Shown here in pieces: positions 3,430-62,288 of a stretch of DNA of 64,000 nucleotides. How positions within the stretch are numbered: position 1 is the first letter of the stretch; every line of letters begins with the position of its first letter. The stretch is from Minisyncoccota bacterium (lineage in GTDB: Bacteria; Patescibacteriota; Minisyncoccia; Phycocordibacterales; UBA9973). A model generated the notes under the pieces. It did no database searches. It had not been told where the DNA came from and saw only the letters and a program-made list of their open reading frames with translations. Position numbers and translations under genes: made by a program. The stretch is from assembly GCA_041666225.1 (NCBI GenBank), contig JBAYHJ010000001.1:1881-65880 (forward strand), in the 5' to 3' direction.

Positions 3430-3437
3430 GATTTAGT

Positions 3438-3511
3438 TTATCAAGTTGTAAAGTTTTTAAAGTTGAAAGTAAATTCTTCTTTATAACTTTATGAACTTTC
3501 TACTTTATAAC
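3438..3511. repeat. MITE-like element copy 2 (rpsS-rplV spacer)
   Basis: tatcaagttgtaaagtttttaaagttgaaagtaaattcttctttataactttatgaactttctactttataactt, ~90% identical to 1796..1872. Confidence 0.7.
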
Positions 3512-3856: not shown

Positions 3857-3931
3857 ATTGTATAAATATAAATAAGCTCTTTTGAGCTCGTGGAATTCAT
3901 GTTAACAAATATAAGATAGAGAGTCAAGTGT

Positions 3932-4342
3932 TTACAAAAACACTACTATTTTCGGCAAAAAGATTATTATCCCTATAACACCAGCCACTATTACAGATAT
4001 TAGAACTGCTCCTGCAGCTACGTCTTTTGTGTCTTTTGCATAGGGGTGAAAAGTAGGAGAAGTTAAGTCAATATCAATCTCAAAAGCGGTATTTAGTGCT
4101 TCAGCAATAATGACTAGACCTATCGAGAAAATTATCATTACCCATTCAATATTTGATATTTTCAAAATAAAACCTAAATAAATAGCCAATATCGCAAAAA
4201 ATATATGAGCCCAGGAGTTGTGAGTAGACCGAATAAAAATACCCAATCCTCGCCATGCATTTCTTGTGCTTTTCAATCTAGCCACAATTGAAAATCTTTT
4301 CTTCTCTGATATTTTTTTATCCATTTTCCTATTATACATCAA
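3932..4342 (-). CDS. dgkA: diacylglycerol/undecaprenol kinase (DgkA family) membrane protein
   Basis: 136 aa, 3 TM helices, DgkA motifs RNAWRGL...HNSWAH and AEALNTAFEIDIDL. Confidence 0.7.
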   Translation of the reverse strand: MMYNRKMDKKISEKKRFSIVARLKSTRNAWRGLGIFIRSTHNSWAHIFFAILAIYLGFILKISNIEWVMIIFSIGLVIIAEALNTAFEIDIDLTSPTFHPYAKDTKDVAAGAVLISVIVAGVIGIIIFLPKIVVFL

Positions 4343-4384
4343 AAAAGCCCCAACCGTAGTCGGGGTATTGATATTTTAATGGGA

Positions 4385-5131
4385 TTAAGTTATTCTTTTT
4401 TTTCTAGCTGGTGTAAGACGATTAACTGTCCACACGATTAAACTTGCTATAATAATTCCAGCCGATCCGAAATAAAAAAAGAAAATGGAGGAAGGGATTA
4501 TTAAATAAAAGAACACAAACAACAAAGCAATAATCATTCCCCCTGATATTCGCCGGGCAATTTTCTCTATGTCGTCAAAAGAAAGAATTAAACAAGCATT
4601 TACAATTGGAATAGCAAGTATTATCCAACAAAATGTCACCAATGTTATATTTTCTTTTGGCGATCCAAAATATAACCACACTAATTCTATTACAGACAAT
4701 ACAATTAACATCGCTGCCAAAACAAGACTCCGCGTTGAATTGTTTTTAACAACAAACCCCCAATAAAGAAATATAATAAACAACACTACCCCAGCCATTG
4801 ATGAATCTCCCATTGAAGAAGAAATATCCTTAGCGAACTGAGTACTTACTGGTACATTTTTGTGAAGTTTTTCATTGTATAACAGCCCGGCGCCTTGTAC
4901 AGAATCTATCTTTAAATTGCCTTTATAATGAATAGATTCTTTGTGGAATAAAATGGTAAGCCCATTTTTGTAAGCTAGATCATTCTGTTCCGGAGTTGCG
5001 TCTTTGTAGGCAACTGAATCTGGAGTAATCGATTTATAACTCGATCCCTCCGATGAGGAAGACGTATTGTTTTTGAAGTATAAAAATACTCCCAAAGACA
5101 ATATCAGGGTAATTAAAAAAAGATTTTTCAT
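4385..5131 (-). CDS. membrane protein, signal peptide/N-terminal anchor plus C-terminal multi-TM domain
   Basis: 248 aa, hydrophobic N-terminus and 4-5 predicted TM segments. Confidence 0.55.
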   Translation of the reverse strand: MKNLFLITLILSLGVFLYFKNNTSSSSEGSSYKSITPDSVAYKDATPEQNDLAYKNGLTILFHKESIHYKGNLKIDSVQGAGLLYNEKLHKNVPVSTQFAKDISSSMGDSSMAGVVLFIIFLYWGFVVKNNSTRSLVLAAMLIVLSVIELVWLYFGSPKENITLVTFCWIILAIPIVNACLILSFDDIEKIARRISGGMIIALLFVFFYLIIPSSIFFFYFGSAGIIIASLIVWTVNRLTPARKKRIT

Positions 5132-5436
5132 GGTTTATTTTTTTAAAATGTTTGCCTTTAGATTACTCCTCATAAAACTTTTGTCAACCACATGATTTTG
5201 ATATATAATGAATTTAAATATTCTTTAAAAATTGTTTTTCTGTCAGACCGCACAAGGTTGAATCAGGTAAAAACTCTAACCAGAGCTTCGTGTCTTTGAC
5301 ACTTAAAGCTATCCTACTAACTGAATCCAAATTTTTTGGTTTCATAACACTTATCAAAGTATTGTCTTAATACTTTTGCTTAAACTAAAAACTTGTATAA
5401 GTATGAATGAAAAACTAAAAAGACAAAAAAGGGAAA

Positions 5437-5781
5437 TTGCACGGCTTCAAAAATAGAGCAGGTTGGAACGATGAACATCATATTAAAACACCTTGTTCAA
5501 GAGGTGGTGAAACAATCGATTCAAATTTACTTTTAATTGATGTCTACCGTCACGATGCGTGGCATTTACTTTTTAGTAATCAAACATTGCGCGAAATAAT
5601 TGCACACCTAAAAAACTACTGTAGCACTAAAGATTTTTTGCTTTCAGTTAACAATTACTATAAGCACCCTGCTTTTCGTTTACTATTTGGGAGTAAACCA
5701 CTAAACGAAATAATAGCATTACTACTAAGAATACAACATGCAAAAGATTCGCAACGAATTAGAATAAAACTAGCTGCATAA
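5437..5781 (+). CDS. hypothetical protein with internal duplicated motif (LLFSNQTLREIIAHL / LLFGSKPLNEIIALL); TTG start
   Basis: ORF-track entry begins at TTG; plausible -35/-10 (ttgtcaa..N17..tatataat) at ~5176-5210; hairpin terminator 5787-5816. Confidence 0.3.
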   Translation: MHGFKNRAGWNDEHHIKTPCSRGGETIDSNLLLIDVYRHDAWHLLFSNQTLREIIAHLKNYCSTKDFLLSVNNYYKHPAFRLLFGSKPLNEIIALLLRIQHAKDSQRIRIKLAA

Positions 5782-5819
5782 AATTAAAAGTCGTTCTGGA
5801 AACAGAACGACTTTTTAGT

Positions 5820-6548
5820 TTACCGAAGCCTTGCTTCGGTAGGTTCTATTTCTTCTATCTCTAACCATTCAAATATTTCTTTCTTGAAAATATTTGGGTC
5901 CTCAAAATAATCAGGGAATTTCTCTTTATTTAAAATCAAATTTTCTGGTCTTTTAGATAAAAGATAATCATTATAACTACTCCATTTGTATGAATTAAGA
6001 AAATTAATAGCTTCTGTTTTATTATTTATCCCTACTTCCTTCCAGTCAGATTGAATCAATTTAATAGGATTTAAGTGTATATATGAAAATAAATATTTTG
6101 CTTGTATTTCATCTTCAATATGAATAGATTTAAATTTACCTTCAAATAAAGACCCTGTTCTGTTATGTTTTTTATTAAAATATTTTGCATATGCGGTACA
6201 GAGTTTTCCCATAAATTCAGTTATATTATTCCTCTCTTCATCTTTCCCATTAGACCTACCGAAGCCTTGCTTCGGTAAAGCTATTAAATACAAGTGGAAA
6301 TGGTTGGGCATCAGTACCCATGCACCAATAGCTACTAACTGGTCCCCCCTTTCAAAATCCCAAGCACTTATTTTGGGTTGAATGATATCATCTTTAAAAT
6401 TAATTCCTTTGGTTGAATTACAAAGAAATAAAAGCTTGATAAAGCGATCTCTATCTTCATCATCAAGAAAGATTATTTGTTTATTGTTTCCTCTATTGTA
6501 AATATGATAATATTCACCATCCACAAGTGGAACTTTTCTTAAAGACAT
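5820..6548 (-). CDS. REP-associated tyrosine transposase (RAYT, IS200/IS605 TnpA-like HuH-Y1), copy 1
   Basis: 242 aa; N-terminal YHIYNRGNNKQIIF, HuH motif LMPNHFHLYL, C-terminal WSSY...Y motif; flanked and interrupted by REP1 palindromes. Confidence 0.8.
   Translation of the reverse strand: MSLRKVPLVDGEYYHIYNRGNNKQIIFLDDEDRDRFIKLLFLCNSTKGINFKDDIIQPKISAWDFERGDQLVAIGAWVLMPNHFHLYLIALPKQGFGRSNGKDEERNNITEFMGKLCTAYAKYFNKKHNRTGSLFEGKFKSIHIEDEIQAKYLFSYIHLNPIKLIQSDWKEVGINNKTEAINFLNSYKWSSYNDYLLSKRPENLILNKEKFPDYFEDPNIFKKEIFEWLEIEEIEPTEARLR
5821..5841. repeat. REP1 palindrome taccgaagccttgcttcggta (copy a)
   Basis: perfect 8-bp arms; copies at 6256..6276, 6573..6593, 24612..24632. Confidence 0.8.
6256..6276. 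repeat. REP1 palindrome (copy b), located in-frame inside the RAYT-1 ORF (translates LPKQGFGRS)
   Basis: sequence identity to other REP1 copies. Confidence 0.8.
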
Positions 6549-6572
6549 ATATTACATTATACTACAAAGGTT

Positions 6573-6593
6573 TACCGAAGCAAGGCTTCGGTG
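6573..6593. repeat. REP1 palindrome (copy c, loop inverted: taccgaagcaaggcttcggtg)
   Basis: sequence. Confidence 0.75.
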
Positions 6594-6641
6594 GATATCT
6601 CGTTTCCCATGATTTTTTATTAAGTTAATTTTAATACCTTA

Positions 6642-6671
6642 ATAATACCCCCCCCCGAAAAATGAAGTCAG
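6642..6671 (-). promoter_or_regulatory. putative sigma70-like promoter with 9-nt poly-G in spacer (minus strand: ctgact-N18 incl. G9-tattat) upstream of RAYT-1
   Basis: C9 tract at 6648..6656 on plus strand; same architecture at 7748..7777, 23865..23895, 25464..25494. Confidence 0.45.
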
Positions 6672-6677
6672 CACATC

Positions 6678-6703
6678 AAAAAATACCCTTGCGGGTATTT
6701 TTT
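6678..6703. terminator. hairpin terminator aaaaaataccc-ttgc-gggtatttttt (duplicate of the rplB terminator at 7825..7851)
   Basis: sequence. Confidence 0.65.
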
Positions 6704-6760
6704 GATGATAGATTTTATATTTTTTTCTAAAATTATTTTGCTTTTCCAACTTTTCGGCGG

Positions 6761-6893
6761 GAGACAATCCACATGTTTGAGTATTTCTTTGGTGTTCTTG
6801 TCTTCTGTCCTTTTCCTGTTGGTTTACCCCACATACTTTTGGCTCGGCGTAGTCCGCGTCCTTGGCGTCCTTCACCTCCGCCGTGGAAACTCG
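6761..6893 (-). pseudogene. duplicated 3' fragment of rplB (encodes ...GGGEGRQGRGLRRAKSMWGKPTGKGQKTRTPKKYSNMWIVSRRK), no start codon
   Basis: near-identical to 7984..8116 of the intact rplB; the overlapping ORF-track entry 6639..6944 is in a different frame and judged spurious. Confidence 0.75.
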
Positions 6894-7016
6894 CAATAAC
6901 GGTTCATTAGAATTCCTTAATATATTATGAGATAAAACAAGCAAAAACGGTTATTTTAGAAAGATTACAAACAAAAAGCAACCACCTTAATCACAGTTAC
7001 ACTAAGATTATATTAA

Positions 7017-7745
7017 TTAATATTTATGTTTATTTTTTTTATTGGCAAGATCACCACGTAAATTTTCTATTAAATAAGTTGATTTGCCTGATTTTTCATT
7101 ATTTTTTTCGTATTTTATTGCTAATTTATCAAACATCTCTTCATTTTCGTCATCTACTGCTTTATAAAGTGCCCTGGAAATATATTTGTCTTCTAAGTGT
7201 AAATGAGCATTTTCAAGAGACCATGTTCTTTCAATTAAATTTTTACCAACAGCTTCATCGAGAATATTTTTTACTTTCCTTTCATCAAATTTTATACCAA
7301 GTTCAATTGCCCTTTCTGCCCAGCAATATAAATTAAACGGTGTTTTATAATCATGTCCCTCCTTTTCTTTTTTATAGAGTTCAATAAAATCATTAATATA
7401 TCCCAATATTTCAATAGGATCATTTACTCTATATTCTTTTGATTCTTTTATTACTTCTAGTAAAAAAGCGTCAACGTCCTCACTTTTTAACTGACCTACT
7501 TTTTCTTGAGTTCCATCTTTAATAATCTTACTTTTTTCATTAAATTCTCTATTTTCTATCTCTGCCTCATCTCGAACATTTTCAGATTCTTGAGCAAGAT
7601 TATTAAGCTCAAAATAAGCCTCCCTTGCATCTTTCCCCCCCGCCTCAATTTTTTCTTGAGTAGCTATTGTTCTTTTATTTAAATCCTCTGCATTAGTAAA
7701 ATTTTCCATATAAATATTCAAAAATATTATTAATAATATACACAT
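7017..7745 (-). CDS. hypothetical acidic/Lys-rich protein (likely true start MENFTNAEDL at ~7711)
   Basis: 242-aa ORF; driven by poly-G promoter 7748..7777; contains an internal G7 tract at ~7626-7632. Confidence 0.55.
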   Translation of the reverse strand: MCILLIIFLNIYMENFTNAEDLNKRTIATQEKIEAGGKDAREAYFELNNLAQESENVRDEAEIENREFNEKSKIIKDGTQEKVGQLKSEDVDAFLLEVIKESKEYRVNDPIEILGYINDFIELYKKEKEGHDYKTPFNLYCWAERAIELGIKFDERKVKNILDEAVGKNLIERTWSLENAHLHLEDKYISRALYKAVDDENEEMFDKLAIKYEKNNEKSGKSTYLIENLRGDLANKKNKHKY

Positions 7746-7747
7746 CT

Positions 7748-7777
7748 ATAGTACCCCCCCCAGACATACATTGTCAA
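7748..7777 (-). promoter_or_regulatory. putative poly-G spacer promoter (minus strand ttgaca-N18 incl. G8-tactat)
   Basis: C8 tract 7754..7761 on plus strand. Confidence 0.45.
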
Positions 7778-7824
7778 TAAAGATAAAAATATAAAAAACT
7801 ATCAAACCAACTTTTTTAAAAAAC

Positions 7825-7851
7825 AAAAAATACCCTTTCGGGTATTTTTTG
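7825..7851. terminator. hairpin terminator downstream of rplB (aaaaaataccc-tttc-gggtatttttt)
   Basis: sequence. Confidence 0.65.
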
Positions 7852-7956
7852 TTGATAGAGTTTTTTATTTTTAAGGCTATTTTGCTTTTCCCTGCCCGCC
7901 CTCGTGTACTCGGGAGCAGGCGGGCAACTTTTCGTTCTATTTGATATGACTAAATA

Positions 7957-8799
7957 TTATTTAGCCTTACCTACCTTCCTTCGAGAGACAATCCACATGT
8001 TTGAGTATTTCTTTGGTGTTCTTGTCTTCTGTCCTTTTCCTGTTGGTTTACCCCACATACTTTTGGCTCGGCGTAGTCCGCGTCCTTGGCGTCCTTCACC
8101 TCCACCGTGTGGATGGTCAACTGGGTTCATGGCTGTACCACGAACTGTTGGGCGAATTCCTTTCCATCGTGAACGTCCTGCTTTTCCAAAGTTTTGAAGT
8201 TTGTATTCACTGTTTGAAACTTCACCAATACATGCCCAGGCATTTTCTGAAACTTTTCGAACTTCAGTTGATGGCATTTTGATATTTGTATACCCAAGGT
8301 CATTGGCAACAACTTGTCCAAATGTACCTGCGGAACGAGCCAATTTTGCTCCATTACCAGCTTTAATCTCTACGTTATACACAAATGTTCCAACTGGAAT
8401 TATTTTAAGAGGTAAACGATTTCCAACTGCAAGTGGAGCTGTTTCGGAAACTATAAATTTATCTCCAACTTTCATTGATTTAGGTACAACCACGTATCTT
8501 TTTTCTCCGTCAGCGTAGCAAGCTAAACTGATGAAGGCATTACGATTTGGATCATATTCTATTGAAGTTATTTTGGCAGGAATATCGTGCTTGTTGTACA
8601 TGAAATCGATTTCACGATAAAGACGCTTATGTCCACCCCCTTTATGGCGAGTAGTGATACGTCCCTGATTATTTCTTCCAACAGATCTCTTAAAACCTTT
8701 TGTTAAAGATTTTTCTGGAGTACTTGTCGTCAACACATTACGGTATGTTACCGTAGTTTGGTGACGCTTTGATGGAGTTGTAGGTCTATATGTTTTCAT
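7957..8799 (-). CDS. rplB: 50S ribosomal protein L2
   Basis: 280 aa; L2 signature (HPHGGGEGR, RNNQGRITTRHKGGGHKR). Confidence 0.92.
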   Translation of the reverse strand: MKTYRPTTPSKRHQTTVTYRNVLTTSTPEKSLTKGFKRSVGRNNQGRITTRHKGGGHKRLYREIDFMYNKHDIPAKITSIEYDPNRNAFISLACYADGEKRYVVVPKSMKVGDKFIVSETAPLAVGNRLPLKIIPVGTFVYNVEIKAGNGAKLARSAGTFGQVVANDLGYTNIKMPSTEVRKVSENAWACIGEVSNSEYKLQNFGKAGRSRWKGIRPTVRGTAMNPVDHPHGGGEGRQGRGLRRAKSMWGKPTGKGQKTRTPKKYSNMWIVSRRKVGKAK

Positions 8800-8801
8800 A
8801 A

Positions 8802-18798: not shown

Positions 18799-18872
18799 TT
18801 TCACTCCATTTATCCACTTTTTATCCCCAGTCCCAAATACCCCCAAAACCCATTAATCCCAAGCCTCCAAAT

Positions 18873-18896
18873 TGTTGGAAGTCGGACTTCCAACAT
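18873..18896. repeat. REP2 palindrome tgttggaagtcggacttccaaca
   Basis: copies at 19529..19557, 19773..19800, 58654..58680, 61013..61035; degenerate half-copies at 18632-18650 and 18683-18700. Confidence 0.8.
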
Positions 18897-18900
18897 TTTG

Positions 18901-18996
18901 TTAACTTCCAACTTAACTTCCAACTTAACTTCCAACTTAACTTCCAACTTAACTTCCAACTTAACTTCCAACTTAACTTCCAACTTAACTTCCAAC
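18901..18996. repeat. tandem repeat, 12-nt unit ttaacttccaac x8 (derived from REP2 half-site)
   Basis: perfect 8 tandem units; produces the spurious EVKL-repeat ORF 18810..18995. Confidence 0.9.
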
Positions 18997-19024: not shown

Positions 19025-19798
19025 TTATTCTAATGTAGTCCCTGATAAATTATCAATATTAAACGATTCAATCCAGTCGGAAATTTGTTTATACTGTTTA
19101 TCTTCATCTCCAAATAATTCAATCAAAAAATCTTTTTTAATTATCGAGGGAAAATTTTTCTTTCCAATATAATCAAGCAAACTACTCCACCTATAATTCA
19201 AAAGGAATTCTAAAGCTTTTTCAGGGTCAGAAATCTTGCCGTTTCGCCATTCTTTAAATTCAAAGTCGAGTGGATTTAAATGAATATATATAGGGAGGTA
19301 CATAAAGTGTGCATCATTTTCTATGTGAATTGATTTAAATTTGCCCTGGAAAAGCGCTCCGTTTCTTTTGTACTTTTGATTAAAATAATTCGTATAACCA
19401 GTTCCAAGCTTTCTCATAAAATTCGTAATTCCATTTTCTTCTTTTTGTCTAATGAGCATATGAAAATGATTGTCCATCAAACAATAAGCCAAAATCTCCA
19501 CAATCGGCTCTTTCCTCTTGTTTTTTATAATTGTTGGAAGTCCGACTTCCAACAATTTGCTTTGACTTTGGTGACGAGAGATTAAATTATTAATATTAAT
19601 TGAAGGATTTTTATCATTAAATTCATACATATCATGAATAAATCTAAAATTATCTCTTTCATTAATAAAAATATTCCTTTTATCTACCCCTCTGTTGTAA
19701 ATATGATAAATCTCATTTGTGGCAAATTTTGATTTTCTAATTGACATATAACTATTATAACAAATTAAATAAATTGTTGGAAGTCGGACTTCCAACAA
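19025..19798 (-). CDS. REP-associated tyrosine transposase (RAYT), copy 2; probable true start MSIRKSKF at ~19744
   Basis: IYHIYNRGVDKRNIF, HuH CLMDNHFHMLI, C-terminal YRWSSLLDY; REP2 palindrome in-frame at 19529..19557 (LEVGLPTI) and another at the 5' end. Confidence 0.75.
   Translation of the reverse strand: MLEVRLPTIYLICYNSYMSIRKSKFATNEIYHIYNRGVDKRNIFINERDNFRFIHDMYEFNDKNPSININNLISRHQSQSKLLEVGLPTIIKNKRKEPIVEILAYCLMDNHFHMLIRQKEENGITNFMRKLGTGYTNYFNQKYKRNGALFQGKFKSIHIENDAHFMYLPIYIHLNPLDFEFKEWRNGKISDPEKALEFLLNYRWSSLLDYIGKKNFPSIIKKDFLIELFGDEDKQYKQISDWIESFNIDNLSGTTLE
19529..19557. repeat. REP2 palindrome inside RAYT-2 coding sequence
   Basis: aattgttggaagtccgacttccaacaatt. Confidence 0.8.
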
Positions 19799-19800
19799 TT
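19773..19800. repeat. REP2 palindrome at RAYT-2 5' end
   Basis: sequence. Confidence 0.8.
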
Positions 19801-23979: not shown

Positions 23980-24285
23980 ATGAATAAATTCAAGGTATTA
24001 TTTATAAATGAAGTTAGAAATTTTATTAATTCGCTTCCAGATGAAGATAAAGGTAAAATCAACTGTGATTCAAATGCTATGGAATTAGGTAATTTTGATT
24101 CCTTATACATCAAAACACTTAGTACTCCTATCAAGGAATTAATTATTAAAAAATACAGACTAATCTTTTTTATAAATAAAAATGAAATCTGGTTTATAGG
24201 AGCATTTATAAAGAAAACTTCCAAAACTCCAAAAAATGAAATAGAAAATGCTAAAAAGTTATACAAAGAAATTATTAATTTATAA
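23980..24285 (+). CDS. HigB/Gp49-like (RelE/ParE superfamily) toxin
   Basis: 101 aa; C-terminal IWFIGAFIKKTSKTPKNEIENAKKLYKEI typical of Gp49/HigB family; plus-strand promoter ttgaca-N18-tatatt at 23914-23943. Confidence 0.6.
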   Translation: MNKFKVLFINEVRNFINSLPDEDKGKINCDSNAMELGNFDSLYIKTLSTPIKELIIKKYRLIFFINKNEIWFIGAFIKKTSKTPKNEIENAKKLYKEIINL

Positions 24286-24295
24286 CAAAAAATAT

Positions 24296-24601
24296 ATGAA
24301 AACAATTAAAACAAAAAATGGTAAAACTTTAAAGTTTTATACTGCAGATGAAGTATTTAAAAAAGATTCAAAATCTAAAGTTTTTGTTGAGGCTTATAAC
24401 GAAGAACTTATTCGGTTAAATCTCGTAGGTGAAATTAAAAAGTTACGACTTGCAAAAAAATATACTCAGAAAGACCTCGCCCAAAAAGCACAAATGCCTC
24501 AATCTGTAATAGCCCGAATAGAGAGTGGAGAACATAGTTTCTCTCTTGGTACTCTTAGCCGTATCGCAAAAGTATTCAAAAAAGAAATACAATTAGTCTA
24601 A
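24296..24601 (+). CDS. XRE-family HTH antitoxin (HigA-like)
   Basis: [33 protein letters not shown]; overlaps/abuts toxin gene. Confidence 0.6.
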
Positions 24602-24611: not shown

Positions 24612-24632
24612 CACCGAAGCAAGGCTTCGGTA
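24612..24632. repeat. REP1 palindrome (copy d) abutting the hppA 3' fragment
   Basis: caccgaagcaaggcttcggta. Confidence 0.8.
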
Positions 24633-51060: not shown

Positions 51061-51990
51061 TTACTTACTATGAAACTTTTTATGAACATCTCGAAGTTGT
51101 TTATCTGTTATATGTGTATATATCTGGGTTGTAGCAATGTTGGCATGACCAAGCATCATTTGGACAGAACGAATATCCGCCCCGTTTGAAAGTAAGTCTG
51201 TCGCAAATGAGTGGCGAATGATATGTGGAGTTACTTTTTTTGATATTCCAGCCACGATTGCATAGTATTTTACAATGCGTTCTATCGAACGGGGAGTTAG
51301 CCTATTTCCTTTCGCTCCATTTTGAGAATATTGGATAAATAAAGGCTCATCCATATCTTTACGAATTTTTAAATATTCTCGAATTGCATCTTTAGCAGAA
51401 TCAGATAAAAATACTACTCGCACCTTTTCCCCCTTACCACGAATAGAAAATTCATCTTTTGATAAATCTAGATCACGATTAATAGAGCAAAGCTCAGAAA
51501 GACGAAGCCCCGTTGAAAAAAATAGCTCCAAAATAGCCTTATCTCGCAACATTTTCCCCAGCCCTAAGTCGGACTTAGGGCTGTTAAGAGGGGCATTTAA
51601 AAGTCGATTTAATTCATCTGTTGATATTAAGTCGAGAGAACGCTCTTTTATTTTAGCTAAGTCTATACGTTCAGGAGAAAGGGAAGTAATACCCCTTTTC
51701 ATCAAGTATTTAAGAAATGAACGAAGAGCAATAAGATGATAATTCTGAGTATTTTTCTTGAGAGTTCCGGCTTGTTGACCTTTTGTTTTAGCACCAGGCT
51801 GACGATTGAGATATAATCTAAACTCTCGAATTTTGTCATCTGTTATTTCTTTCGGTTCGGAAATTTTAGCAAAAGTGAAAAAACGAGTTAAATAGTGGTC
51901 GTAATTATTGACCGTTTTTAGACTGTTTCCTTTCTCAATTTCTACATGTTCAAGGAATTCTCTTTTTAATTGTTCGAATTCTGTGGTCAT
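51061..51990 (-). CDS. xerD: tyrosine site-specific recombinase (XerC/XerD-type)
   Basis: 309 aa; catalytic RHSFATDLLSNGADIRSVQMMLGHANIATTQIYTHI. Confidence 0.85.
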   Translation of the reverse strand: MTTEFEQLKREFLEHVEIEKGNSLKTVNNYDHYLTRFFTFAKISEPKEITDDKIREFRLYLNRQPGAKTKGQQAGTLKKNTQNYHLIALRSFLKYLMKRGITSLSPERIDLAKIKERSLDLISTDELNRLLNAPLNSPKSDLGLGKMLRDKAILELFFSTGLRLSELCSINRDLDLSKDEFSIRGKGEKVRVVFLSDSAKDAIREYLKIRKDMDEPLFIQYSQNGAKGNRLTPRSIERIVKYYAIVAGISKKVTPHIIRHSFATDLLSNGADIRSVQMMLGHANIATTQIYTHITDKQLRDVHKKFHSK

Positions 51991-57086: not shown

Positions 57087-58655
57087 ATGTCATTCTCGAG
57101 AATTTATTCAGCACAAACACATTTATTAAAAGGAAAAATTGTAACTATTGAAGTTGATATTACAAAAAAGACTCTTCACTCTTTTACTTTAGTTGGGCTG
57201 CCAGATAAAGCTGTCGACGAATCAAAAGACCGAATGAGTTCTGCTTTAAAAAACTCAGGATACAATTCTCCTAAAAATCAAAATCAAAAAATTGTTATTT
57301 CACTTTCTCCAGCTGATCTTAAAAAAGAGGGGCCATATTTTGATTTAGCAATTGCGCTTTCTTACCTTCTTTCTGCCGAAGAAATAAATTTTAATCCTGA
57401 TGGAAGAATTTTTCTGGGAGAATTGTCATTAAACGGTGAACTACGTCCCATAAAAGGGGCATTGCCATTAACTCAAGAAGCTAAAAAACTTGGTTATAAA
57501 GAAATATTCTTACCAATTGAAAATGCTGAAGAGGCTGCGCTTGTGGATGATATTAAAATATATGGAGCAAAAAATCTAAAAGAAGTAATTGATCATATTT
57601 ATATACCAAAGACAGATAAAAAGGGTAATTTAATAGAAAAAGAAAGACCCAAAATATCTATCTTCCCAAAAACTGAAATCCTACACAAAGAAAGATCTGG
57701 GAATATTGATTTTTCAGATATCAAAGGTCAAGAAGGGGCAAAAAGGGGACTTGAGATAGCAGCTAGTGGTGGACACAATATCGCTATGTCTGGCCCACCT
57801 GGTACAGGGAAAACAATGTTGGCGCGCGTTTTTTCGCACATTCTTCCCGATTTAGAAAAAGATGATTGTTTAGAAATTACAGGAATACACTCAGTTGTTG
57901 GACTACTTGAAGATGCATTAATTACCGAATCCCCCTTTCGTGCTCCGCACCATACCGCAAGTTATGTCTCAATGATTGGAGGTGGAACAAATCCAAAACC
58001 GGGAGAGGTTACACTTGCACACCGTGGAGTTTTATTTCTCGATGAATTTCCAGAATTTGAAAAAAGGGTTTTAGAAGCTCTTCGCCAGCCACTTGAAGAC
58101 AATGTCGTCTCAATTTCTCGCGCCCGTGGTTCAGCGATTTTTCCATCAAATTTTATCCTCGTTGCGGCAATGAATCCTTGTCCTTGTGGAAATAAAGGCA
58201 ACAAACAAAAAGAGTGTATTTGTAAACCAATTGATTTAGATCGGTATAAAAGAAAACTCTCAGGTCCTATAATGGATCGAATTGATATTTGGGTTACAGT
58301 TAGCAATGTAGATTATGAAAAGCTTTCAAATAACACACAGGAAGGTGAAAAAACTTTTACGATAAAAGAAAGGGTCAAAAAAGCTCGTGATATTCAAAAT
58401 AAACGGTTTAAAAATGCGGAGAGAAAAATAAACACAAATAGTGAAATAAATGTAAAAGAATTAAATATTTACGCTCCACTTGATAATGAAACAAAAAAAT
58501 TACTAAACCAAAGTGCTGAGCGCCTACAACTCTCAGCCCGAGCCTACCACCGCACCATCAAACTCGCTCGCACCATCGCCGACCTAGAAGGTAGTGAAAA
58601 TATAACTCAATCTCATATCTTGGAAGCACTCCAATACAGACCAAGAGAAAATTAA
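57087..58655 (+). CDS. comM: ComM/YifB-family Mg-chelatase-like AAA+ ATPase
   Basis: 522 aa; Walker A GPPGTGKT, Walker B VLFLDEFPEF, C-terminal ChlI-like domain. Confidence 0.85.
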   Translation: MSFSRIYSAQTHLLKGKIVTIEVDITKKTLHSFTLVGLPDKAVDESKDRMSSALKNSGYNSPKNQNQKIVISLSPADLKKEGPYFDLAIALSYLLSAEEINFNPDGRIFLGELSLNGELRPIKGALPLTQEAKKLGYKEIFLPIENAEEAALVDDIKIYGAKNLKEVIDHIYIPKTDKKGNLIEKERPKISIFPKTEILHKERSGNIDFSDIKGQEGAKRGLEIAASGGHNIAMSGPPGTGKTMLARVFSHILPDLEKDDCLEITGIHSVVGLLEDALITESPFRAPHHTASYVSMIGGGTNPKPGEVTLAHRGVLFLDEFPEFEKRVLEALRQPLEDNVVSISRARGSAIFPSNFILVAAMNPCPCGNKGNKQKECICKPIDLDRYKRKLSGPIMDRIDIWVTVSNVDYEKLSNNTQEGEKTFTIKERVKKARDIQNKRFKNAERKINTNSEINVKELNIYAPLDNETKKLLNQSAERLQLSARAYHRTIKLARTIADLEGSENITQSHILEALQYRPREN

Positions 58656-58680
58656 TGTTGGAAGTCGGACTTCCAACATT
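58654..58680. repeat. REP2 palindrome immediately after the comM stop codon
   Basis: aatgttggaagtcggacttccaacatt. Confidence 0.8.
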
Positions 58681-59218: not shown

Positions 59219-60904
59219 ATGACAAAAGAAAAATGCAAAACATGTGAGAAAGATTTTGTAATAAGAGATGAAGATCTTGTTTTTTATGAACAAATGAAAA
59301 CAGTCCCTCCAGTTGATTGCCCTGATTGTCGTATGGCAAGAAGGTTAGTTTTTCGCAATGAAAGAACCTTATATAAAAGAACTTGTGATCTTTGTAAAAA
59401 AGATATGGTCGCTTTGTATACTCAAGAATCAAAATTTAAAGTTTACTGTCATGATTGTTGGTGGAGCGATAATTGGAATCCAAAAGATTATGCACAAGAT
59501 TATGATTTCTCAAAAACATTTTTTGAACAGTTTAGAGAATTAATGATGAAAGTTCCACGGATTGGAATGCTGGCATTTAATAATGTTCGAAGTGAATACA
59601 CAAATGGCTCAGCCGAAAACAAAGATTGTTATTTAATTTTTGCAGCTGATTATAATGAGGACTGCTTATATAGCAGATTACTTCAACGTGACAAGGGTTG
59701 TGTAGATTGCGCCTTCCTCCATGAATCAGAGTTGTGTTATGAATGTATCGATACTCGAAAATGTTTTAAATGTATGTATTCGGAACAATGTCAGTCATCA
59801 AGTGATTTATTGTTTTGTTTTAATATGAGAGATTCTCAAAATTGTATTTTTTGTACAAATGGCAGGCATATGTCGAACTATATTCTAAATCAAAAGTGTA
59901 CAAAAGAAGAATATGATAAAAAGAAAAAAGAAATACTTTCAAATTATGAAAGTATTGAAAAAGCTAAAAAAGAATTTATAGAAATAAAAAAGAAGGCTAT
60001 CATGAAATTTACTTCTCAAAGTAAGTGCCACAATGTTACAGGGGACTATATTCACAACTGTTATGATGGAGTTAGGCTTTATGACACTTATGATGCAAAA
60101 AATTGTTCTTATATGAAGGACACCGAGAACCCAACTGACAGCTGGGATTGTAATAATTATTATTACAAATGTCAGTTTGGTTACAATATAATGGGCGCAT
60201 TACAAATTAGTAATTGTAAAAATTGTGCTTTTGTATTTTATTCGAATAATCTGGAATATTGTGAAAATTGTTATCATCTATCAAATGGATTTGGTTGTCT
60301 CGCAATTCGTAAGGGTCAAAATATGATTTTAAATAAAGAATATGAAAAAGAAGAATACCTAAAAATAAGAAAACAAATTGAGGATGAAATGAAAAAAGAT
60401 GGAACTTGGGGTCAATATTTCCCTGCAAGCATCGCTCCTTTCTCATACAACGAAGCGCTCTCACAAGACTTCTTTCCTTTATCAAAAGAAGAAGCAATAA
60501 AAAGAGGTTTTACTTGGCAAGAAAAAACAACTGGAACTTACGGAAAAGAAACCATCGAAAAAGGAGAAATTCCTAATTCTATAGAAAAGGTTACCGAAGC
60601 TATTTTAAAAGAAATTTTAGTTTGTGAAGATTGTAATAAAAATTATCGCCTTGTCCAAGCTGAATTGGAATTTTACAAAAGAATGAATTTACCAATCCCT
60701 CATAAAGATTTTGAGTGTCGTCATCAAGATAGAATGAAAAAAAGAAACACAAAAGAACTTTACCCTCGTTCATGTATGTGTAAAAACGAAAAACATATAA
60801 ATCACAATGGCGTTAATTGTTCAGAAAAACTTGAGACAACTTATGCTCCAGACCGACCAGAAATAATTTATTGTGAAAGTTGTTATCAACAAGAAGTAGC
60901 ATAG
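59219..60904 (+). CDS. cysteine-rich protein with terminal zinc-ribbon modules (paralog B)
   Basis: 561 aa; CKTCEKDF...FYEQMKTVPPVDCPDCRMARRLVFRNERTLYKRTC; same architecture as 40001..41725. Confidence 0.7.
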   Translation: MTKEKCKTCEKDFVIRDEDLVFYEQMKTVPPVDCPDCRMARRLVFRNERTLYKRTCDLCKKDMVALYTQESKFKVYCHDCWWSDNWNPKDYAQDYDFSKTFFEQFRELMMKVPRIGMLAFNNVRSEYTNGSAENKDCYLIFAADYNEDCLYSRLLQRDKGCVDCAFLHESELCYECIDTRKCFKCMYSEQCQSSSDLLFCFNMRDSQNCIFCTNGRHMSNYILNQKCTKEEYDKKKKEILSNYESIEKAKKEFIEIKKKAIMKFTSQSKCHNVTGDYIHNCYDGVRLYDTYDAKNCSYMKDTENPTDSWDCNNYYYKCQFGYNIMGALQISNCKNCAFVFYSNNLEYCENCYHLSNGFGCLAIRKGQNMILNKEYEKEEYLKIRKQIEDEMKKDGTWGQYFPASIAPFSYNEALSQDFFPLSKEEAIKRGFTWQEKTTGTYGKETIEKGEIPNSIEKVTEAILKEILVCEDCNKNYRLVQAELEFYKRMNLPIPHKDFECRHQDRMKKRNTKELYPRSCMCKNEKHINHNGVNCSEKLETTYAPDRPEIIYCESCYQQEVA

Positions 60905-60975: not shown

Positions 60976-61012
60976 ATCTTTTCTTGGCTGAGTATGGGGC
61001 AGTGTCAGGAGT

Positions 61013-61035
61013 GTTGGAAGTCGGACTTCCAACAT
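61013..61035. repeat. REP2 palindrome followed (61047..61080) by a ~30-nt duplicate of the 3' end of the upstream Cys-rich gene (ttattgtgaaagttgttatcaaca)
   Basis: match to 60869..60892. Confidence 0.75.
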
Positions 61036-61163: not shown

Positions 61164-62288
61164 CTAAAACGGTGGTCGCATCTTGGAACCATTAGCATTT
61201 TCTATTTCAAAGTGAAGATGTGGGCCAGTAGATAAACCAGTGTTTCCAAGTGATCCGATTTTATCCCCTTGAGCAACAGTTTCACCCATCTTAACATTTA
61301 CCTTACTCAAATGACCGTATCGAGTCATAGTTCCATTTGGATGTTCTATATCAATATAATTTCCATATCCACCACCGCAACCTCTCTTTCCTTCTTTACA
61401 ACCAGTAACAACCTTAGAAACAACACCGGAAGCGGCAGCCACAATTTGAGTTCCGCGAACATTTCCAAAGTCTATCCCCGGATGAAACCCTCTTCGTCTT
61501 GATCCATACGGAGATGTAACAATTCCAACTACTGGTCTTAGATAATAACCAGATGGGGCTTTTGTATTTGATGATTTAGTAGAAACTGGATTCTTTGTAT
61601 TTGAAGAAGGTGTAGGCTTTGCAACAACTGGTTTAATAATACCGTTTGGAACAAAGATTATATCTCCTTGCTTGAGATCTCCGTTTGAAATATCGTTGAA
61701 TATTGATATATCTTCAGATTCAGCTTCATATTTATCTGCAATCTTACTTAAAGTATCACCCTTTTTAACAACATGCTTTACTCCAGTAACAGGCAGAATA
61801 TTGAGCTTTTGGCCAACAGAAATCTTTGGGCTAGTAATATTATTTTCCCAACGAATTGTATTTACTGAAACATTAAAATATTCAGCAATTCCTGACAAAG
61901 TATCACCTTCTTTAACTGTGTAAACATTAATCTGGTCAGAAATTGAGCTTTTTTCAAAAGAAACATCCGGCCCCGGCCCAAAAATACCATCACTGTAGAT
62001 AAATGAGTCATCTTGAACTATCACAATATCTTCTTTATCATTTGTATTTTTAAGATCTGGATTAACCGAAGACTCTAAAAGAGGAATATTTTGGGAGTTA
62101 TGGATAACACTATTATCTATTTGAGGGGCAACTTCATTTGCTGTTACCTCGGTACCCAACACCATTGATGTTAAATCAGAAAAAAAGCTGGCATTTGCCA
62201 ACGTTGGAACTCCAAATATCATAGAAAGGGCTACAAAAAAAGAAGAAACCTTTATAATAGAAGGCTTGTAAGATAAGGCTATTTTCAT
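61164..62288 (-). CDS. M23-family peptidase with two LysM domains
   Basis: 374 aa; LysM (YTVKEGDTLSGIAEYF; VKKGDTLSKIADKY); M23 HPGIDFG...GHL...HLHFEI. Confidence 0.85.
   Translation of the reverse strand: MKIALSYKPSIIKVSSFFVALSMIFGVPTLANASFFSDLTSMVLGTEVTANEVAPQIDNSVIHNSQNIPLLESSVNPDLKNTNDKEDIVIVQDDSFIYSDGIFGPGPDVSFEKSSISDQINVYTVKEGDTLSGIAEYFNVSVNTIRWENNITSPKISVGQKLNILPVTGVKHVVKKGDTLSKIADKYEAESEDISIFNDISNGDLKQGDIIFVPNGIIKPVVAKPTPSSNTKNPVSTKSSNTKAPSGYYLRPVVGIVTSPYGSRRRGFHPGIDFGNVRGTQIVAAASGVVSKVVTGCKEGKRGCGGGYGNYIDIEHPNGTMTRYGHLSKVNVKMGETVAQGDKIGSLGNTGLSTGPHLHFEIENANGSKMRPPF

What the first reader, a model, noticed from the sequence alone, without database searches (positions are those of the whole stretch)
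5819..6593. REP1 palindromes with a RAYT-type transposase whose ORF carries its own REP in-frame
The 242-aa ORF has the IS200-like Y1-HuH signature (YHIYNRG..IF, LMPNHFHL, C-terminal WSSY..Y) that is typical of REP-associated tyrosine transposases. Four copies of a 21-nt palindrome, taccgaagc(c/a)(t/a)(t/g)gcttcggta, occur in the window: 5821, 6256, 6573 and 24612. One copy (6256-6276) lies inside the RAYT ORF without breaking the frame, inserted as LPKQGFGRS. REP/RAYT pairs are documented mainly in Proteobacteria, so a pair in a CPR-like genome with an in-gene REP is unusual.
Basis: partly seen in the sequence, partly recalled or inferred. Interest (0 to 1): 0.8.

Follow-up and report, generated by a model that had tools for sequence, protein, structure and literature searches.

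The report
RAYT gene carrying its own hairpin
A transposase-like gene for cutting single-stranded DNA, in a small candidate-phyla (Patescibacteria) genome, is flanked by copies of a short DNA hairpin and carries one more copy in frame inside itself; a whole clade of such genes shares this layout, so it is a new variant of the known REP/RAYT arrangement and not a one-off accident.

Summary
The palindrome TACCGAAGC-nnn-GCTTCGGTA occurs four times in the window (0 expected by chance). Three copies lie within 775 bp: just upstream of, inside, and at the stop codon of the 242-aa ORF 5820..6548(-).

The ORF is a HUH-Y1 protein. It has NHFH and YIHLNP motifs, and its predicted fold is closest to E. 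coli TnpAREP (4ER8). Its profile scores are below threshold until the hairpin-encoded loop is removed.

The in-ORF copy is not a private insertion. In 83 Patescibacterial homologues, hairpins occur almost only at three fixed positions. Stem sequences differ between loci (41 variants) but are identical within a locus (94 of 103 pairs). One clade (34 of about 42 genes) keeps the in-ORF copy, read in all three frames.

Dispersed copies are rare (about 1 per 57 kb). In relatives they sit in frame inside ArgS, Mur ligase, TsaD and Xer genes.

The window holds a second, divergent RAYT paralogue with its own three hairpins. It also holds a third-family hairpin inside a xer gene.

In-frame REPs inside RAYT genes were already described for TnpAY1 subclass 2.4 (Quentin et al. 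2018). This case is therefore a new variant in a new lineage, of moderate interest.

The parts
5820..6548 (-). RAYT/TnpAREP-like HUH-Y1 gene, 242 aa, paralogue 1. HUH is at H83/H85 (PNHFHL), the Y motif at Y152/Y156 (YLFSYIHLNP), and there is a WSSY tail.
6573..6593 (.). Upstream cognate hairpin, inverted relative to the other two copies at the gene. It lies 24 nt upstream of the ATG and is conserved base for base in orthologues.
6578..6583 (-). A -35-like TTGCTT formed by the loop and 3' arm of the upstream hairpin, 16 nt upstream of the -10 box. This is inferred. It matches only 3 of 6 positions of TTGACA and was not called by the consensus scan.
   Evidence: My reading. Conserved. Not listed.
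6556..6561 (-). Perfect TATAAT -10 box, 7 nt upstream of the ATG at 6548. It is conserved in four orthologues and suggests a leaderless or near-leaderless mRNA (inferred).
6257..6277 (.). In-ORF cognate hairpin, read as LPKQGFG (residues 91-97). It encodes a low-confidence surface loop between the HUH strand (83-90) and helix 108-127.
5821..5841 (.). Downstream cognate hairpin. It is read as the last residues TEARLR and supplies the TAA stop codon.
5786..5815 (.). Separate 13-bp hairpin with an A-run and a T-run. It looks like a bidirectional intrinsic terminator between the RAYT gene and ORF 5437..5781(+).
24612..24632 (.). Solo dispersed copy of hairpin family 1. It lies 10 nt after the stop codon of an HTH_3 (XRE-type) gene, 24248..24601(+).
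19025..19747 (-). Second RAYT-like paralogue, 38% identical to paralogue 1. It has DNHFH, LFQGKF, YIHLNP and RWSS motifs and scores 40.8 bits on Pfam Y1_Tnp (cut-off 23).
19772..19800 (.). Upstream hairpin of paralogue 2, family 2: AATTGTTGGAAGT-cgg-ACTTCCAACAATT (+ strand), followed by TTATAAT and then the ATG.
19529..19557 (.). In-ORF hairpin of paralogue 2, read as LLEVGLPTI. It lies before the HUH strand, at a different site from the in-ORF hairpin of paralogue 1.
18873..18895 (.). Downstream hairpin of paralogue 2.
18901..18996 (.). Tandem array of eight copies of the 12-nt unit TTAACTTCCAAC, which resembles one arm of the family 2 hairpin. It lies between the stop codon of paralogue 2 and its downstream hairpin.
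58654..58680 (.). Dispersed solo copy of hairpin family 2, overlapping the last two bases of the stop codon of the Mg-chelatase/ComM-like gene 57087..58655(+).
61012..61034 (.). Dispersed solo copy of hairpin family 2, in the intergenic space between 59219..60904(+) and 61164..62288(-).
51559..51583 (.). Hairpin of a third family, CAGCCCTAAGT-cgg-ACTTAGGGCTG, in frame (SPKSDLGL) inside the xerC/D-like integrase gene 51061..51990(-). The same stem is the cognate hairpin of RAYT genes in loci L004 and L010.

Best explanation
This is a REPtron-like unit: a resident (domesticated-type) HUH-Y1 single-strand-DNA nuclease/ligase gene of the RAYT/TnpAREP kind, together with the short perfect palindrome it recognises.

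Shown:
- The gene is bracketed by inverted copies of the palindrome and carries a third copy in frame.
- That third copy lies in a low-confidence surface loop directly after the HUH beta-strand.
- The three-hairpin layout is conserved in position across a large Patescibacterial family.
- The stem sequence changes from lineage to lineage but stays the same among the copies of one gene.
- Orthologues occupy the same chromosomal site.
- Solo copies are few and include in-frame copies in housekeeping genes.

Inferred:
- The protein binds the hairpin when it is extruded on single-stranded DNA (as TnpAREP and IS200/IS605 TnpA do) and cleaves and rejoins next to it.
- This activity occasionally seeds new copies, and only stop-free copies whose length is a multiple of three survive inside genes.
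- It also repeatedly converts or replaces existing copies, which would keep the copies at its own gene homogeneous and co-evolving with the protein.
- The in-ORF copy is an old insertion in the ancestor of one clade. It is tolerated because the loop is permissive and is kept matched by that conversion. It is dispensable, since a few members have lost it.
- The upstream copy overlaps the -35 position of the gene's own promoter, so it may also couple hairpin state or occupancy to expression.
For: Protein identity:
- NHFH and YIHLNP motifs are invariant in 29 homologues.
- The fold is closest to 4er8_A TnpAREP, followed by IS200-family TnpAs.
- Pfam reaches its cut-off once the loop is deleted.
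- Paralogue 2 scores 40.8 bits on Y1_Tnp.

Architecture:
- In 83 homologue genes, GC-containing hairpins with stems of 7 bp or more fall at -300..-251 (59), +25..+49 (34) and +400..+524 (61) relative to the HUH codon. Almost none fall elsewhere.

Co-evolution:
- 94 of 103 within-locus hairpin pairs have identical 6-nt arms, against 3.4% of between-locus pairs.
- There are 41 distinct arm sequences.
- The orthologue L129 differs at the in-ORF hairpin by three compensatory pair changes.

Conservation at the nucleic-acid level, not the peptide level:
- The in-ORF hairpin centre falls in all three frames.
- The encoded peptides differ: PKQGFG, PKGLAFG, SRSKASG, NAEARL.

Age of the in-ORF copy:
- It is present in 34 of about 42 genes of one NJ clade and absent at that site in the other clade.

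Permissive loop:
- pLDDT is below 50 for residues 95-105.

Resident gene:
- Orthologues at 79-84% identity (L129, L148, L195) lie in the same rplB-RAYT-dagK-rpsS context.
- Paralogues within one genome are divergent (38% here), and each has its own hairpin family.

Mobility of the hairpin:
- Solo copies occur at 24612, 58654 and 61012.
- The same hairpin sits in frame in ArgS, Mur ligase, TsaD and Xer genes of relatives.
- It is present in the L104 xer gene but absent from the 85%-identical window orthologue, an 18-nt net indel.

Strand asymmetry typical of REPs:
- There is a conserved 5' foot, TAAAGGGTTT, and 26 of 34 copies have an AAG loop when oriented by that foot.

Promoter overlap:
- The upstream hairpin and the TATAAT box are conserved in four orthologues.
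Against: - No biochemical evidence exists for binding or cleavage.
- Profile scores of the window protein are below the curated cut-offs.
- Copy number is far below that of classical REPs: 16 extra copies in 911 kb of flanks, many within 1.5 kb of the gene. Dispersal by this protein is therefore weakly evidenced.
- The hairpins lack the GT[AG]G guide foot used by the characterised TnpAREP.
- Loop orientation is not fixed across the family. Replication-slippage inversion or gene conversion without any role for the protein could produce this.
- Identity among the copies of one gene could be maintained by ordinary gene conversion, or by selection on an RNA or promoter role.
- The -35 element is only a 3-of-6 match, and the consensus scan did not call it.
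- My hairpin scans required perfect stems, so decayed copies are under-counted.
Confidence: 0.7

Rival explanations
1. The whole unit (hairpin, gene, hairpin; about 770 bp) is an autonomous IS200-like insertion sequence. The flanking hairpins are its left and right ends, and the in-ORF copy is an accident.
For: - The unit is compact and bracketed by subterminal hairpins, like IS200.
- The fold also matches IS200, ISDra2 and IS608 TnpA.
- Several genomes hold 2-3 family members.
- In this window the gene sits inside an insertion-rich gap of the ribosomal protein operon.
Against: - The Y motif is Y---NP (class 2, TnpAREP-like), not the Y---Q of IS200 transposases (Table 1 of PMC6006769).
- Copies within a genome are divergent paralogues (38% here) with different hairpins, not near-identical IS copies.
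- Orthologues at 79-84% identity keep the same rplB/dagK/rpsS context.
- The flanking hairpins are inverted relative to each other, whereas IS200/IS605 ends are on the same strand (the comparison rests on my knowledge of the family).
- Solo hairpins exist without the gene.
- No relatives were found on viral contigs.
Confidence: 0.1
2. The hairpins are ordinary regulatory or terminator stem-loops that act as RNA (terminator, mRNA stabiliser, translation attenuator). They have no specific relation to the HUH protein.
For: - The consensus scan lists 5817-5845 and 6570-6596 as terminator-like.
- In some homologues the stems are flanked by A-runs and T-runs, for example L003 and L009.
- The solo copies at 24612, 58654 and 61012 all lie downstream of genes, two of them within about 10 nt of a stop codon.
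- REPs within 15 nt of a stop codon are known to affect translation in E. coli (my recollection of the literature, not checked here).
Against: - Three of the four copies are at one gene and 0 are expected by chance.
- One copy is inside the ORF, and copies occur inside housekeeping ORFs of relatives.
- Each RAYT paralogue has its own private hairpin sequence, repeated 2-3 times at the gene.
- The upstream copy lies upstream of the likely -10 box, so it would not be in the gene's own mRNA.
- Most copies lack a T-run.
- A real terminator-like hairpin follows separately at 5786-5815.
Confidence: 0.1
3. The in-ORF hairpin is a selected self-target. The protein binds or nicks its own coding strand (or the upstream copy at the promoter) to limit its own expression or to time its activity with replication. 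This would parallel HUH replication initiators whose origin lies inside their own gene.
For: - The in-ORF hairpin has been kept as a perfect palindrome, matched to the flanking copies, through diversification into more than 25 stem variants in one clade.
- An independent in-ORF insertion at another site exists in paralogue 2 and in L068.
- The upstream copy overlaps the -35 position next to a conserved TATAAT.
Against: - About 8 of 42 clade members have lost the perfect in-ORF hairpin while keeping the flanking copies.
- The other clade functions without it.
- The same hairpins sit in unrelated housekeeping genes, where self-regulation cannot apply.
- Quentin et al. interpret comparable insertions in subclass 2.4 as peripheral and probably neutral.
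Confidence: 0.1

Closest known systems
REPtrons: tnpAREP/RAYT genes flanked by REPs (E. coli TnpAREP, PDB 4ER8; Nunvar 2010 PMC2817692; Bertels & Rainey 2011 PMC3116915)
   Same: - HUH plus a single-Tyr (Y---NP) protein whose best structural match is 4er8_A.
- The gene is flanked by inverted copies of a cognate palindrome.
- Each paralogue has its own palindrome family.
- The genes are low-copy, divergent paralogues kept in syntenic positions.
   Different: - The palindromes are short and perfect (8-13 bp stem, 3-nt loop) and have no GT[AG]G foot.
- Only a handful of dispersed copies were found, not tens to hundreds.
- The protein is about 240 aa with a WSSY-containing tail, against 165 aa.
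- The host is a Patescibacterium with a very small genome.
TnpAY1 subclass 2.4 (Bertels group 4), with REPs inserted in frame inside tnpAREP (Quentin, Siguier, Chandler, Fichant 2018, PMC6006769)
   Same: A REP copy lies inside the RAYT gene without breaking the frame. [quoted passage not shown]
   Different: - The motif signature differs. This protein has NHFH / FE or FQ / YIHLNP / SS tail at about 240 aa. Subclass 2.4 has NH[IFV]H / WQ / YIxNNP at about 194 aa.
- Subclass 2.4 REPs are long, GTAG-tagged or 'double foot'.
- The paper did not report one fixed insertion site kept across a clade with stems co-varying with the flanking copies.
TnpAY1 subclass 2.1 (Bertels group 1; includes TIRYTs)
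   Same: This is the best match at motif level. The signature NH[YF]H, FQ, Y[IV]HLNP, a proximal tail with an SS motif and a median length of 238 aa fits both window paralogues.
   Different: - Subclass 2.1 was reported to have no REP-like sequences nearby, and some members have terminal inverted repeats instead.
- It has HTH-like C-terminal domains, which I did not detect.
- Membership cannot be tested here because the authors' HMMs are not available.
Intragenic REPs and Rickettsia palindromic elements (De Nocera et al. 2013, PMC3733652, and references there)
   Same: - Short palindromic repeats sit in frame inside genes for known proteins, including tRNA synthetases.
- REP ends supply stop codons to flanking ORFs.
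- Here the parallels are ArgS, Mur ligase, TsaD and Xer, and the RAYT stop codon itself.
   Different: - These elements are much shorter (about 21-35 nt, adding 6-9 codons) than RPEs.
- They are untagged.
- They occur in Patescibacteria.
IS200/IS605 TnpA with subterminal hairpins
   Same: The fold is the same. Recognition of DNA hairpins next to the gene is the presumed shared mechanism.
   Different: - The Y motif is Y---NP, not Y---Q.
- No near-identical multi-copy elements were found.
- The flanking hairpins are inverted relative to each other.
- Solo hairpins are dispersed.

Membership tests
HUH-Y1 (TnpAY1) superfamily | HuH motif and a single catalytic Tyr motif on a Y1_Tnp-type core | tested here: met
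   - NHFH (H83, H85) and YLFSYIHLNP are invariant in 29 homologues.
- Foldseek's top PDB hits are TnpAREP and IS200-family TnpAs with probability 1.0.
- Pfam PF01797 scores 17.7 bits as is and 23.1 bits (cut-off 23) after deleting the hairpin-encoded loop.
- 23 of 29 homologues hit PF01797.
RAYT / TnpAREP (TnpAY1 class 2) | Y motif of the Y---NP type (class 2), not Y---Q (IS200) | tested here: met
   YIHLNP is present in both window paralogues. The criterion comes from Table 1 of PMC6006769.
RAYT / TnpAREP (TnpAY1 class 2) | Gene flanked by copies of a cognate palindrome (REPtron arrangement), specific to each paralogue | tested here: met
   - Window copies lie at 6573 and 5821, inverted relative to each other.
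- Paralogue 2 has a different hairpin at 19772 and 18873.
- Among the homologue genes classed, 49 of 83 have both an upstream and a downstream hairpin; in the earlier 70-gene set it was 46 of 70.
- Within-locus identity is 94 of 103 pairs.
RAYT / TnpAREP (TnpAY1 class 2) | Cognate palindrome present in many dispersed copies in the genome (REP, typically more than 100 per genome; at least over-represented) | tested here: inconclusive
   - Dispersed copies exist, but they are few: 1 extra in this 64-kb window for family 1 and 2 for family 2.
- 16 extra copies were found in 911 kb of homologue flanks.
- At least 4 copies lie on one 593-kb metagenome contig.
- No complete genome could be counted.
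RAYT / TnpAREP (TnpAY1 class 2) | GT[AG]G (or CGTC) tetranucleotide at the foot of the hairpin | tested here: not met
   The consensus of 34 oriented copies is TAAAGGGTTT-ACCGAAGC-AAG-GCTTCGGT-RRA, with no GTAG or CGTC. Subclasses 2.6 and 3 also lack this tag according to PMC6006769.
RAYT / TnpAREP (TnpAY1 class 2) | Low copy number, divergent paralogues, vertical inheritance (domesticated, not IS-like) | tested here: met
   - The two window paralogues are 38% identical.
- Orthologues at 79-84% identity lie in the same rplB/dagK/rpsS context.
- No relatives were found on viral contigs.
RAYT / TnpAREP (NCBIfam NF047646 equivalog) | Score at or above the curated cut-off of 80 bits | tested here: not met
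   39.1 bits, residues 59-163. The protein is not an equivalog of the E. coli-type RAYT.
TnpAY1 subclass 2.4 | Motifs NH[IFV]H / WQ / YIxNNP, about 194 aa, long GTAG or double-foot REPs, REPs inserted in tnpAREP | tested here: not met
   The HuH motif and the in-gene REP fit. However, the W motif is FE or FQ, the Y motif is YIHLNP, the length is 242 aa and the hairpins are short and untagged.
TnpAY1 subclass 2.1 | Motifs NH[YF]H / FQ / Y[IV]HLNP, SS tail motif, about 238 aa; authors' subclass HMMs | not testable with these tools
   The motif signature and length fit. The subclass was described as lacking REPs.
IS200/IS605 insertion sequences | Y---Q Tyr motif, high-identity multi-copy elements, same-strand subterminal hairpins | tested here: not met
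   The Y motif is YIHLNP. No near-identical copies were found. The flanking hairpins are inverted.

The most novel reading that the evidence does not exclude
Patescibacteria may harbour a phylum-wide, previously undescribed system of RAYT-like genes and very short palindromes that are free of stop codons. Because intergenic space is scarce in these genomes, the palindromes would persist mainly at the RAYT gene itself and in frame inside essential genes (ArgS, Mur ligase, TsaD, Xer), writing 6-9-residue peptides into proteins. On this reading the in-ORF copy in the RAYT gene, and the upstream copy on its promoter, are selected self-targets that couple the enzyme's expression to its own substrate. 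They would not be tolerated passengers.
Probability: 0.2. Interest if true: 0.75.

Novelty: new variant of a known kind. Interest (0 to 1): 0.55.

Why it matters
RAYT/REP systems are the best-studied example of a domesticated transposase living with its own non-autonomous repeats, but they are known almost entirely from Proteobacteria, Cyanobacteria and Bacteroidetes.

This finding adds four things:
- The arrangement is widespread in the ultra-small Patescibacteria: at least 7,944 protein clusters and at least 551 loci in species-representative genomes.
- It occurs with a protein type (subclass 2.1-like) that was thought to lack REPs.
- A fixed three-hairpin layout allows hairpin-protein co-evolution to be read directly. 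There are 41 stem variants, each repeated 2-3 times at its own gene.
- The same hairpins appear as in-frame peptide insertions in essential genes, one possible source of the short lineage-specific insertions seen in these proteins here.

It also has an annotation consequence. The hairpin-encoded loop pushes these proteins below the Pfam and NCBIfam cut-offs.

Tried and rejected
- **Known RNA family.** An Rfam scan of 3000-9000 at E<=1 found only sub-threshold chance hits.
- **Generic terminator.** Rejected because of the clustering at the gene, the in-ORF copies and the paralogue-specific sequences.
- **LPKQGFG as a conserved protein motif.** Rejected because the hairpin centre falls in all three frames and the peptides differ while the palindrome is kept.
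- **Recent private insertion.** Rejected because all orthologues and most of the clade carry the hairpin.
- **Recently mobile gene or phage cargo.** Orthologues are syntenic and no viral relatives were found.
- **PDB sequence search.** The family profile gave only a marginal 4er8 hit (E=0.93). The fold search was needed.
- **Metagenome scan with the 19-mer.** It was still useful for finding orthologues and the in-frame copies.
- **Two literature searches for RAYT or REP in Patescibacteria/CPR.** Nothing relevant was found. This does not prove that no description exists.
- **DNA alignment of the third-family hairpin site in xer against L104.** My coordinates were badly chosen and the result is uninformative.
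- **First hairpin script.** It mishandled G.T closing pairs and undercounted; it was replaced.
Full report

Yes. The pattern TACCGAAGC-NNN-GCTTCGGTA, allowing up to two mismatches, occurs exactly four times in the 64-kb window (34% G+C). The copies are at 5821-5841, 6257-6277, 6573-6593 and 24612-24632, and none was found in 100 shuffles.

The ORF 5820..6548(-) is 242 aa and carries the quoted motifs.
- The copy at 6257 is read in frame as LPKQGFG.
- The copy at 5821 is read as the C-terminal TEARLR and supplies the TAA stop codon.
- The copy at 6573 lies 24 nt upstream of the ATG.

As single-stranded DNA each copy folds into a stem of 8-9 bp with a 3-nt loop, at -8.3 to -9.2 kcal/mol and z-scores of -3.8 to -5.8.

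**2. What is the protein?**

Profile searches alone are weak. Pfam Y1_Tnp scores 17.7 bits against a cut-off of 23 and matches only the part after the insertion. NCBIfam REP_Tyr_transpos scores 39 bits against a cut-off of 80.

Three further results settle the fold.
- Deleting the 16 residues encoded by and just after the hairpin raises Pfam to 23.1 bits, and the match then includes the HUH strand.
- 23 of 29 close homologues hit PF01797.
- An AlphaFold model (pLDDT 73, pTM 0.74) has 4er8_A as its best PDB match by Foldseek. 4er8_A is E. coli TnpAREP bound to a REP hairpin (E=1.1e-5). IS200, ISDra2 and IS608 transposases follow.

In the alignment H83, H85 (PNHFH), Y152 and Y156-I-H-L-N-P are invariant. 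The Y---NP signature is that of TnpAY1 class 2 (RAYT-like), not IS200 (Table 1 of Quentin et al. 2018, PMC6006769). The hairpin-encoded residues (about 91-106) form a low-confidence loop between the HUH strand (83-90) and the next helix (108-127).

**3. The hairpin inside the ORF is a family feature, not a private insertion.**

The family is large.
- At least 7,944 protein clusters match at E<=1e-3, and the named hits are all Patescibacteria or unclassified bacteria.
- At least 551 loci were found in species-representative genomes. All 80 loci retrieved come from Patescibacteria or from unclassified bacterial metagenome bins; some records carry other labels.

In the protein alignment the close homologues all have LPKQGFG after the HUH strand. 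More distant ones carry PKGLAFG, PEGLAFG, SRSKASG, NAEARL or KTEALL at the same place. These are the same or other palindromes read in other frames.

I scanned the DNA of 83 homologue genes for perfect stems of at least 7 bp with at least 35% G+C. Hairpins fall at three positions relative to the HUH codon:
- -300..-251 (59 hairpins)
- +25..+49 (34 hairpins)
- +400..+524 (61 hairpins)

Almost none fall elsewhere.

Stem sequences differ widely between loci: there are 41 distinct 6-nt arms. Within a locus they are the same: 94 of 103 within-locus pairs are identical, against 3.4% of between-locus pairs. The centre of the in-ORF hairpin falls in all three reading frames, so the palindrome is conserved and the peptide is not.

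A neighbour-joining tree separates two clades.
- One clade of about 42 genes includes the window gene. In it 34 genes keep the in-ORF hairpin.
- The other clade lacks any insertion at that site. Its sequence runs HFHILITE-kxxxGISKFMQK.

The simplest history is one old acquisition, long-term concerted evolution with the flanking copies, and a few losses (for example L007, L020, L022, L024 and L045).

Among four orthologues at 79-84% protein identity, the upstream and downstream hairpins are conserved base for base. One orthologue (L129) differs at the in-ORF hairpin by three compensatory changes on both arms.

**4. Is it a REP?**

Only partly. When oriented by the flanks, 34 distinct copies of this hairpin from the window and related contigs give an asymmetric consensus: (T)TAAAGGGTTT-ACCGAAGC-AAG-GCTTCGGT-(A/G)(A/G)A. 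On one strand G.T pairs can extend the stem. There is no GT[AG]G or CGTC foot.

At the gene, the upstream copy is inverted relative to the in-ORF and downstream copies. This is the arrangement described for REPs flanking RAYT genes.

Dispersed copies exist but are rare.
- The window has one extra copy, at 24612, 10 nt after an HTH_3 gene.
- 911 kb of homologue flanks hold 16 extra copies, many within 1.5 kb of the gene.
- One 593-kb metagenome contig holds at least four copies.

This is far below the tens to hundreds of copies of classical REPs. It is closer to the roughly 12-14 occurrences reported for the 16-mers flanking Bertels groups 1 and 4 (PMC5581495).

**5. The gene is resident, while the hairpin moves.**

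The window gene lies in a roughly 4-kb gap between rplB and rpsS of the ribosomal protein operon, together with dagK and several ORFs with no Pfam family above its cut-off. The orthologues L129, L148 and L195 occupy the same rplB-RAYT-dagK-rpsS context. This argues for vertical inheritance. No relatives were found on viral contigs.

By contrast, the same hairpin sits in frame inside housekeeping genes of related organisms.
- Read as LPKQGFG: arginyl-tRNA synthetase (L082, L109, L146, L189), a Mur ligase (L144, L177), TsaD (L100) and a XerC/D-type integrase (L104).
- Read as YRSKASV: a class-V aminotransferase (L171).

The window's own xer orthologue (51061..51990, 85% identical to L104) lacks that copy, a net 18-nt indel. 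The insertion is therefore polymorphic between close relatives.

The core of hairpin 1 has no stop codon in any of the six frames. Intragenic REPs, including some in tRNA synthetase genes, and REP ends that supply stop codons have been described in other phyla (De Nocera et al. 2013, PMC3733652).

**6. The window holds more of the same.**

A second, divergent RAYT-like gene (19025..19747(-), 38% identity, Pfam Y1_Tnp 40.8 bits) has its own hairpin family, AATTGTTGGAAGT-ccg/cgg-ACTTCCAACAATT.
- The upstream copy is at 19772-19800.
- The in-ORF copy is at 19529-19557. It is read as LLEVGLPTI and lies before the HUH strand, so it is an independent in-ORF insertion.
- The downstream copy is at 18873-18895.
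- Two solo copies lie at 58654-58680 and 61012-61034.
- A tandem array of eight copies of a 12-nt unit resembling one hairpin arm lies between the stop codon and the downstream copy.

A third-family hairpin (CAGCCCTAAGT-cgg-ACTTAGGGCTG, 51559-51583) sits in frame inside the xer gene, in the only frame that is free of stop codons. The same stem is the cognate hairpin of RAYT genes in L004 and L010.

**7. How it most likely works.**

Shown: the architecture, its positional conservation, the within-gene identity against between-gene diversity of the stems, the permissive loop, the synteny of the gene, and the polymorphic in-frame copies.

Inferred, by analogy with TnpAREP and IS200/IS605 TnpA:
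- The protein recognises the hairpin on single-stranded DNA and cuts and rejoins beside it.
- That activity occasionally creates or replaces copies.
- It keeps the copies at its own gene homogeneous, so that hairpin and protein co-evolve.

Two observations are consistent with replacement at existing hairpin sites. The in-ORF hairpin of L018 matches the hairpin of its paralogue L023. The in-ORF hairpin of L129 differs from its own flanking copies.

The upstream copy overlaps the -35 position (TTGCTT, 16-nt spacer) of a conserved TATAAT box that lies 7 nt from the ATG. This suggests a leaderless transcript and possible coupling of hairpin state to expression. That part is inference. The -35 element is weak and the consensus scan did not call it.

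I put about 0.7 on the overall explanation. The specific claim that the protein itself homogenises the copies deserves less, about 0.4. Ordinary gene conversion, or selection on a promoter or RNA role, could contribute.

**8. Comparison with what is known.**

The closest published description is TnpAY1 subclass 2.4 of Quentin et al. [quoted passage not shown] The phenomenon is therefore known.

The window proteins do not fit the subclass 2.4 motif signature. They fit subclass 2.1 better (NH[YF]H, FQ, Y[IV]HLNP, SS tail, about 238 aa). That subclass was reported to lack REPs. I could not run the authors' HMMs, so subclass membership remains open.

My searches found no description of RAYT/REP systems in Patescibacteria. 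JGI's automatic annotation does label some homologues 'REP element-mobilizing transposase RayT'.

**9. Verdict.**

It is a new variant, in a new lineage, of a known kind of system. Its distinguishing features are:
- untagged, very short, low-copy palindromes;
- a protein of the subclass 2.1 type;
- a fixed three-hairpin layout that evolves in concert.

Interest is moderate (0.55). The most novel reading still open is that the in-ORF and promoter copies are selected self-targets, and that these coding-compatible palindromes are a general source of peptide insertions in Patescibacterial proteins. I give that about 0.2.

Noticed in passing
window 18868-19805, 58654-58680, 61012-61034: A second RAYT-like paralogue (19025..19747(-), 38% identical) has its own hairpin family, AATTGTTGGAAGT-ccg/cgg-ACTTCCAACAATT. 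Copies lie upstream, in the ORF (before the HUH strand, peptide LLEVGLPTI) and downstream, and there are two solo copies elsewhere in the window.
   Followed up: yes
window 18901-18996: A perfect tandem array of eight copies of the 12-nt unit TTAACTTCCAAC, which resembles one arm of the family 2 hairpin. It lies between the stop codon of paralogue 2 and its downstream hairpin. Its origin (slippage on a half-hairpin?) is unexplained.
   Followed up: partly
window 51559-51583 (inside 51061..51990(-)): A third-family palindrome, CAGCCCTAAGT-cgg-ACTTAGGGCTG, lies in frame (SPKSDLGL) inside the xerC/D-like integrase gene. The same stem is the cognate hairpin of RAYT genes in loci L004 and L010. No matching RAYT is in this window.
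   Followed up: partly
L104 2092-2110 compared with window about 51290-51310: The family 1 hairpin is present in frame (NLPKQGFGK) in the xer gene of a relative but absent from the 85%-identical window orthologue, a net 18-nt indel. The insertion is polymorphic between close lineages.
   Followed up: yes
L082 5981, L109 9393, L146 270, L189 670 (ArgS); L144 12348, L177 3583 (Mur ligase); L100 8016 (TsaD); L171 64 (class-V aminotransferase): The same hairpin as in the window sits in frame inside essential housekeeping genes of related metagenome contigs. It is mostly in the sense orientation and read as (K)GLPKQGFG.
   Followed up: partly
window 6761-6879 and 7985-8103: A 119-nt exact direct repeat. 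An internal 3' part of rplB (7957..8799(-)) is duplicated upstream of the RAYT gene. The two copies bracket a roughly 1.1-kb segment holding ORF 7017..7745(-) (242 aa, no Pfam hit). That ORF was not detected in the orthologous contexts L129 and L148.
   Followed up: partly
window 3857-7956: About 4 kb is inserted between rplB and rpsS of the ribosomal protein operon. It contains dagK, a predicted membrane ORF, a 114-aa ORF, the RAYT gene, the rplB fragment and ORF 7017. In L075 rplB and rpsS are only 43 nt apart. The RAYT and dagK genes are also found between rplB and rpsS in L129 and L148.
   Followed up: partly
L020 about 2507-2560; L022; L062 and L057 upstream regions: In some homologues two inverted copies of the cognate hairpin lie 6 nt apart and form a longer palindrome. 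An example is TTTCCCACATGTCGGACATGTGGG-aacgct-CCCACATGTCCGACATGTGGGAAA. This is a REPIN-like doublet next to the gene.
   Followed up: no
L088, L093, L099, L114, L120, L121, L126, L136, L137, L156-L158, L160, L162 and others: The metagenome scan also returned a recurrent, unrelated conserved context, (T)CGAAAT(C/T)ACCGAAGCCATGCTTCGGTATTT(C/T)AT, in many contigs of 42-65% G+C. Its reverse complement, GATGAAATACCGAAGCATGGCTTCGGTGATCTCGA, was returned as well. This is probably a conserved structured element of unrelated organisms. It was not identified.
   Followed up: no
window 6651-6659 and 6674-6707: A run of nine C residues is followed by a 15-bp-stem terminator-like hairpin, CATCAAAAAATACCC-ttgc-GGGTATTTTTTGATG, upstream of the RAYT promoter region.
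   Followed up: no
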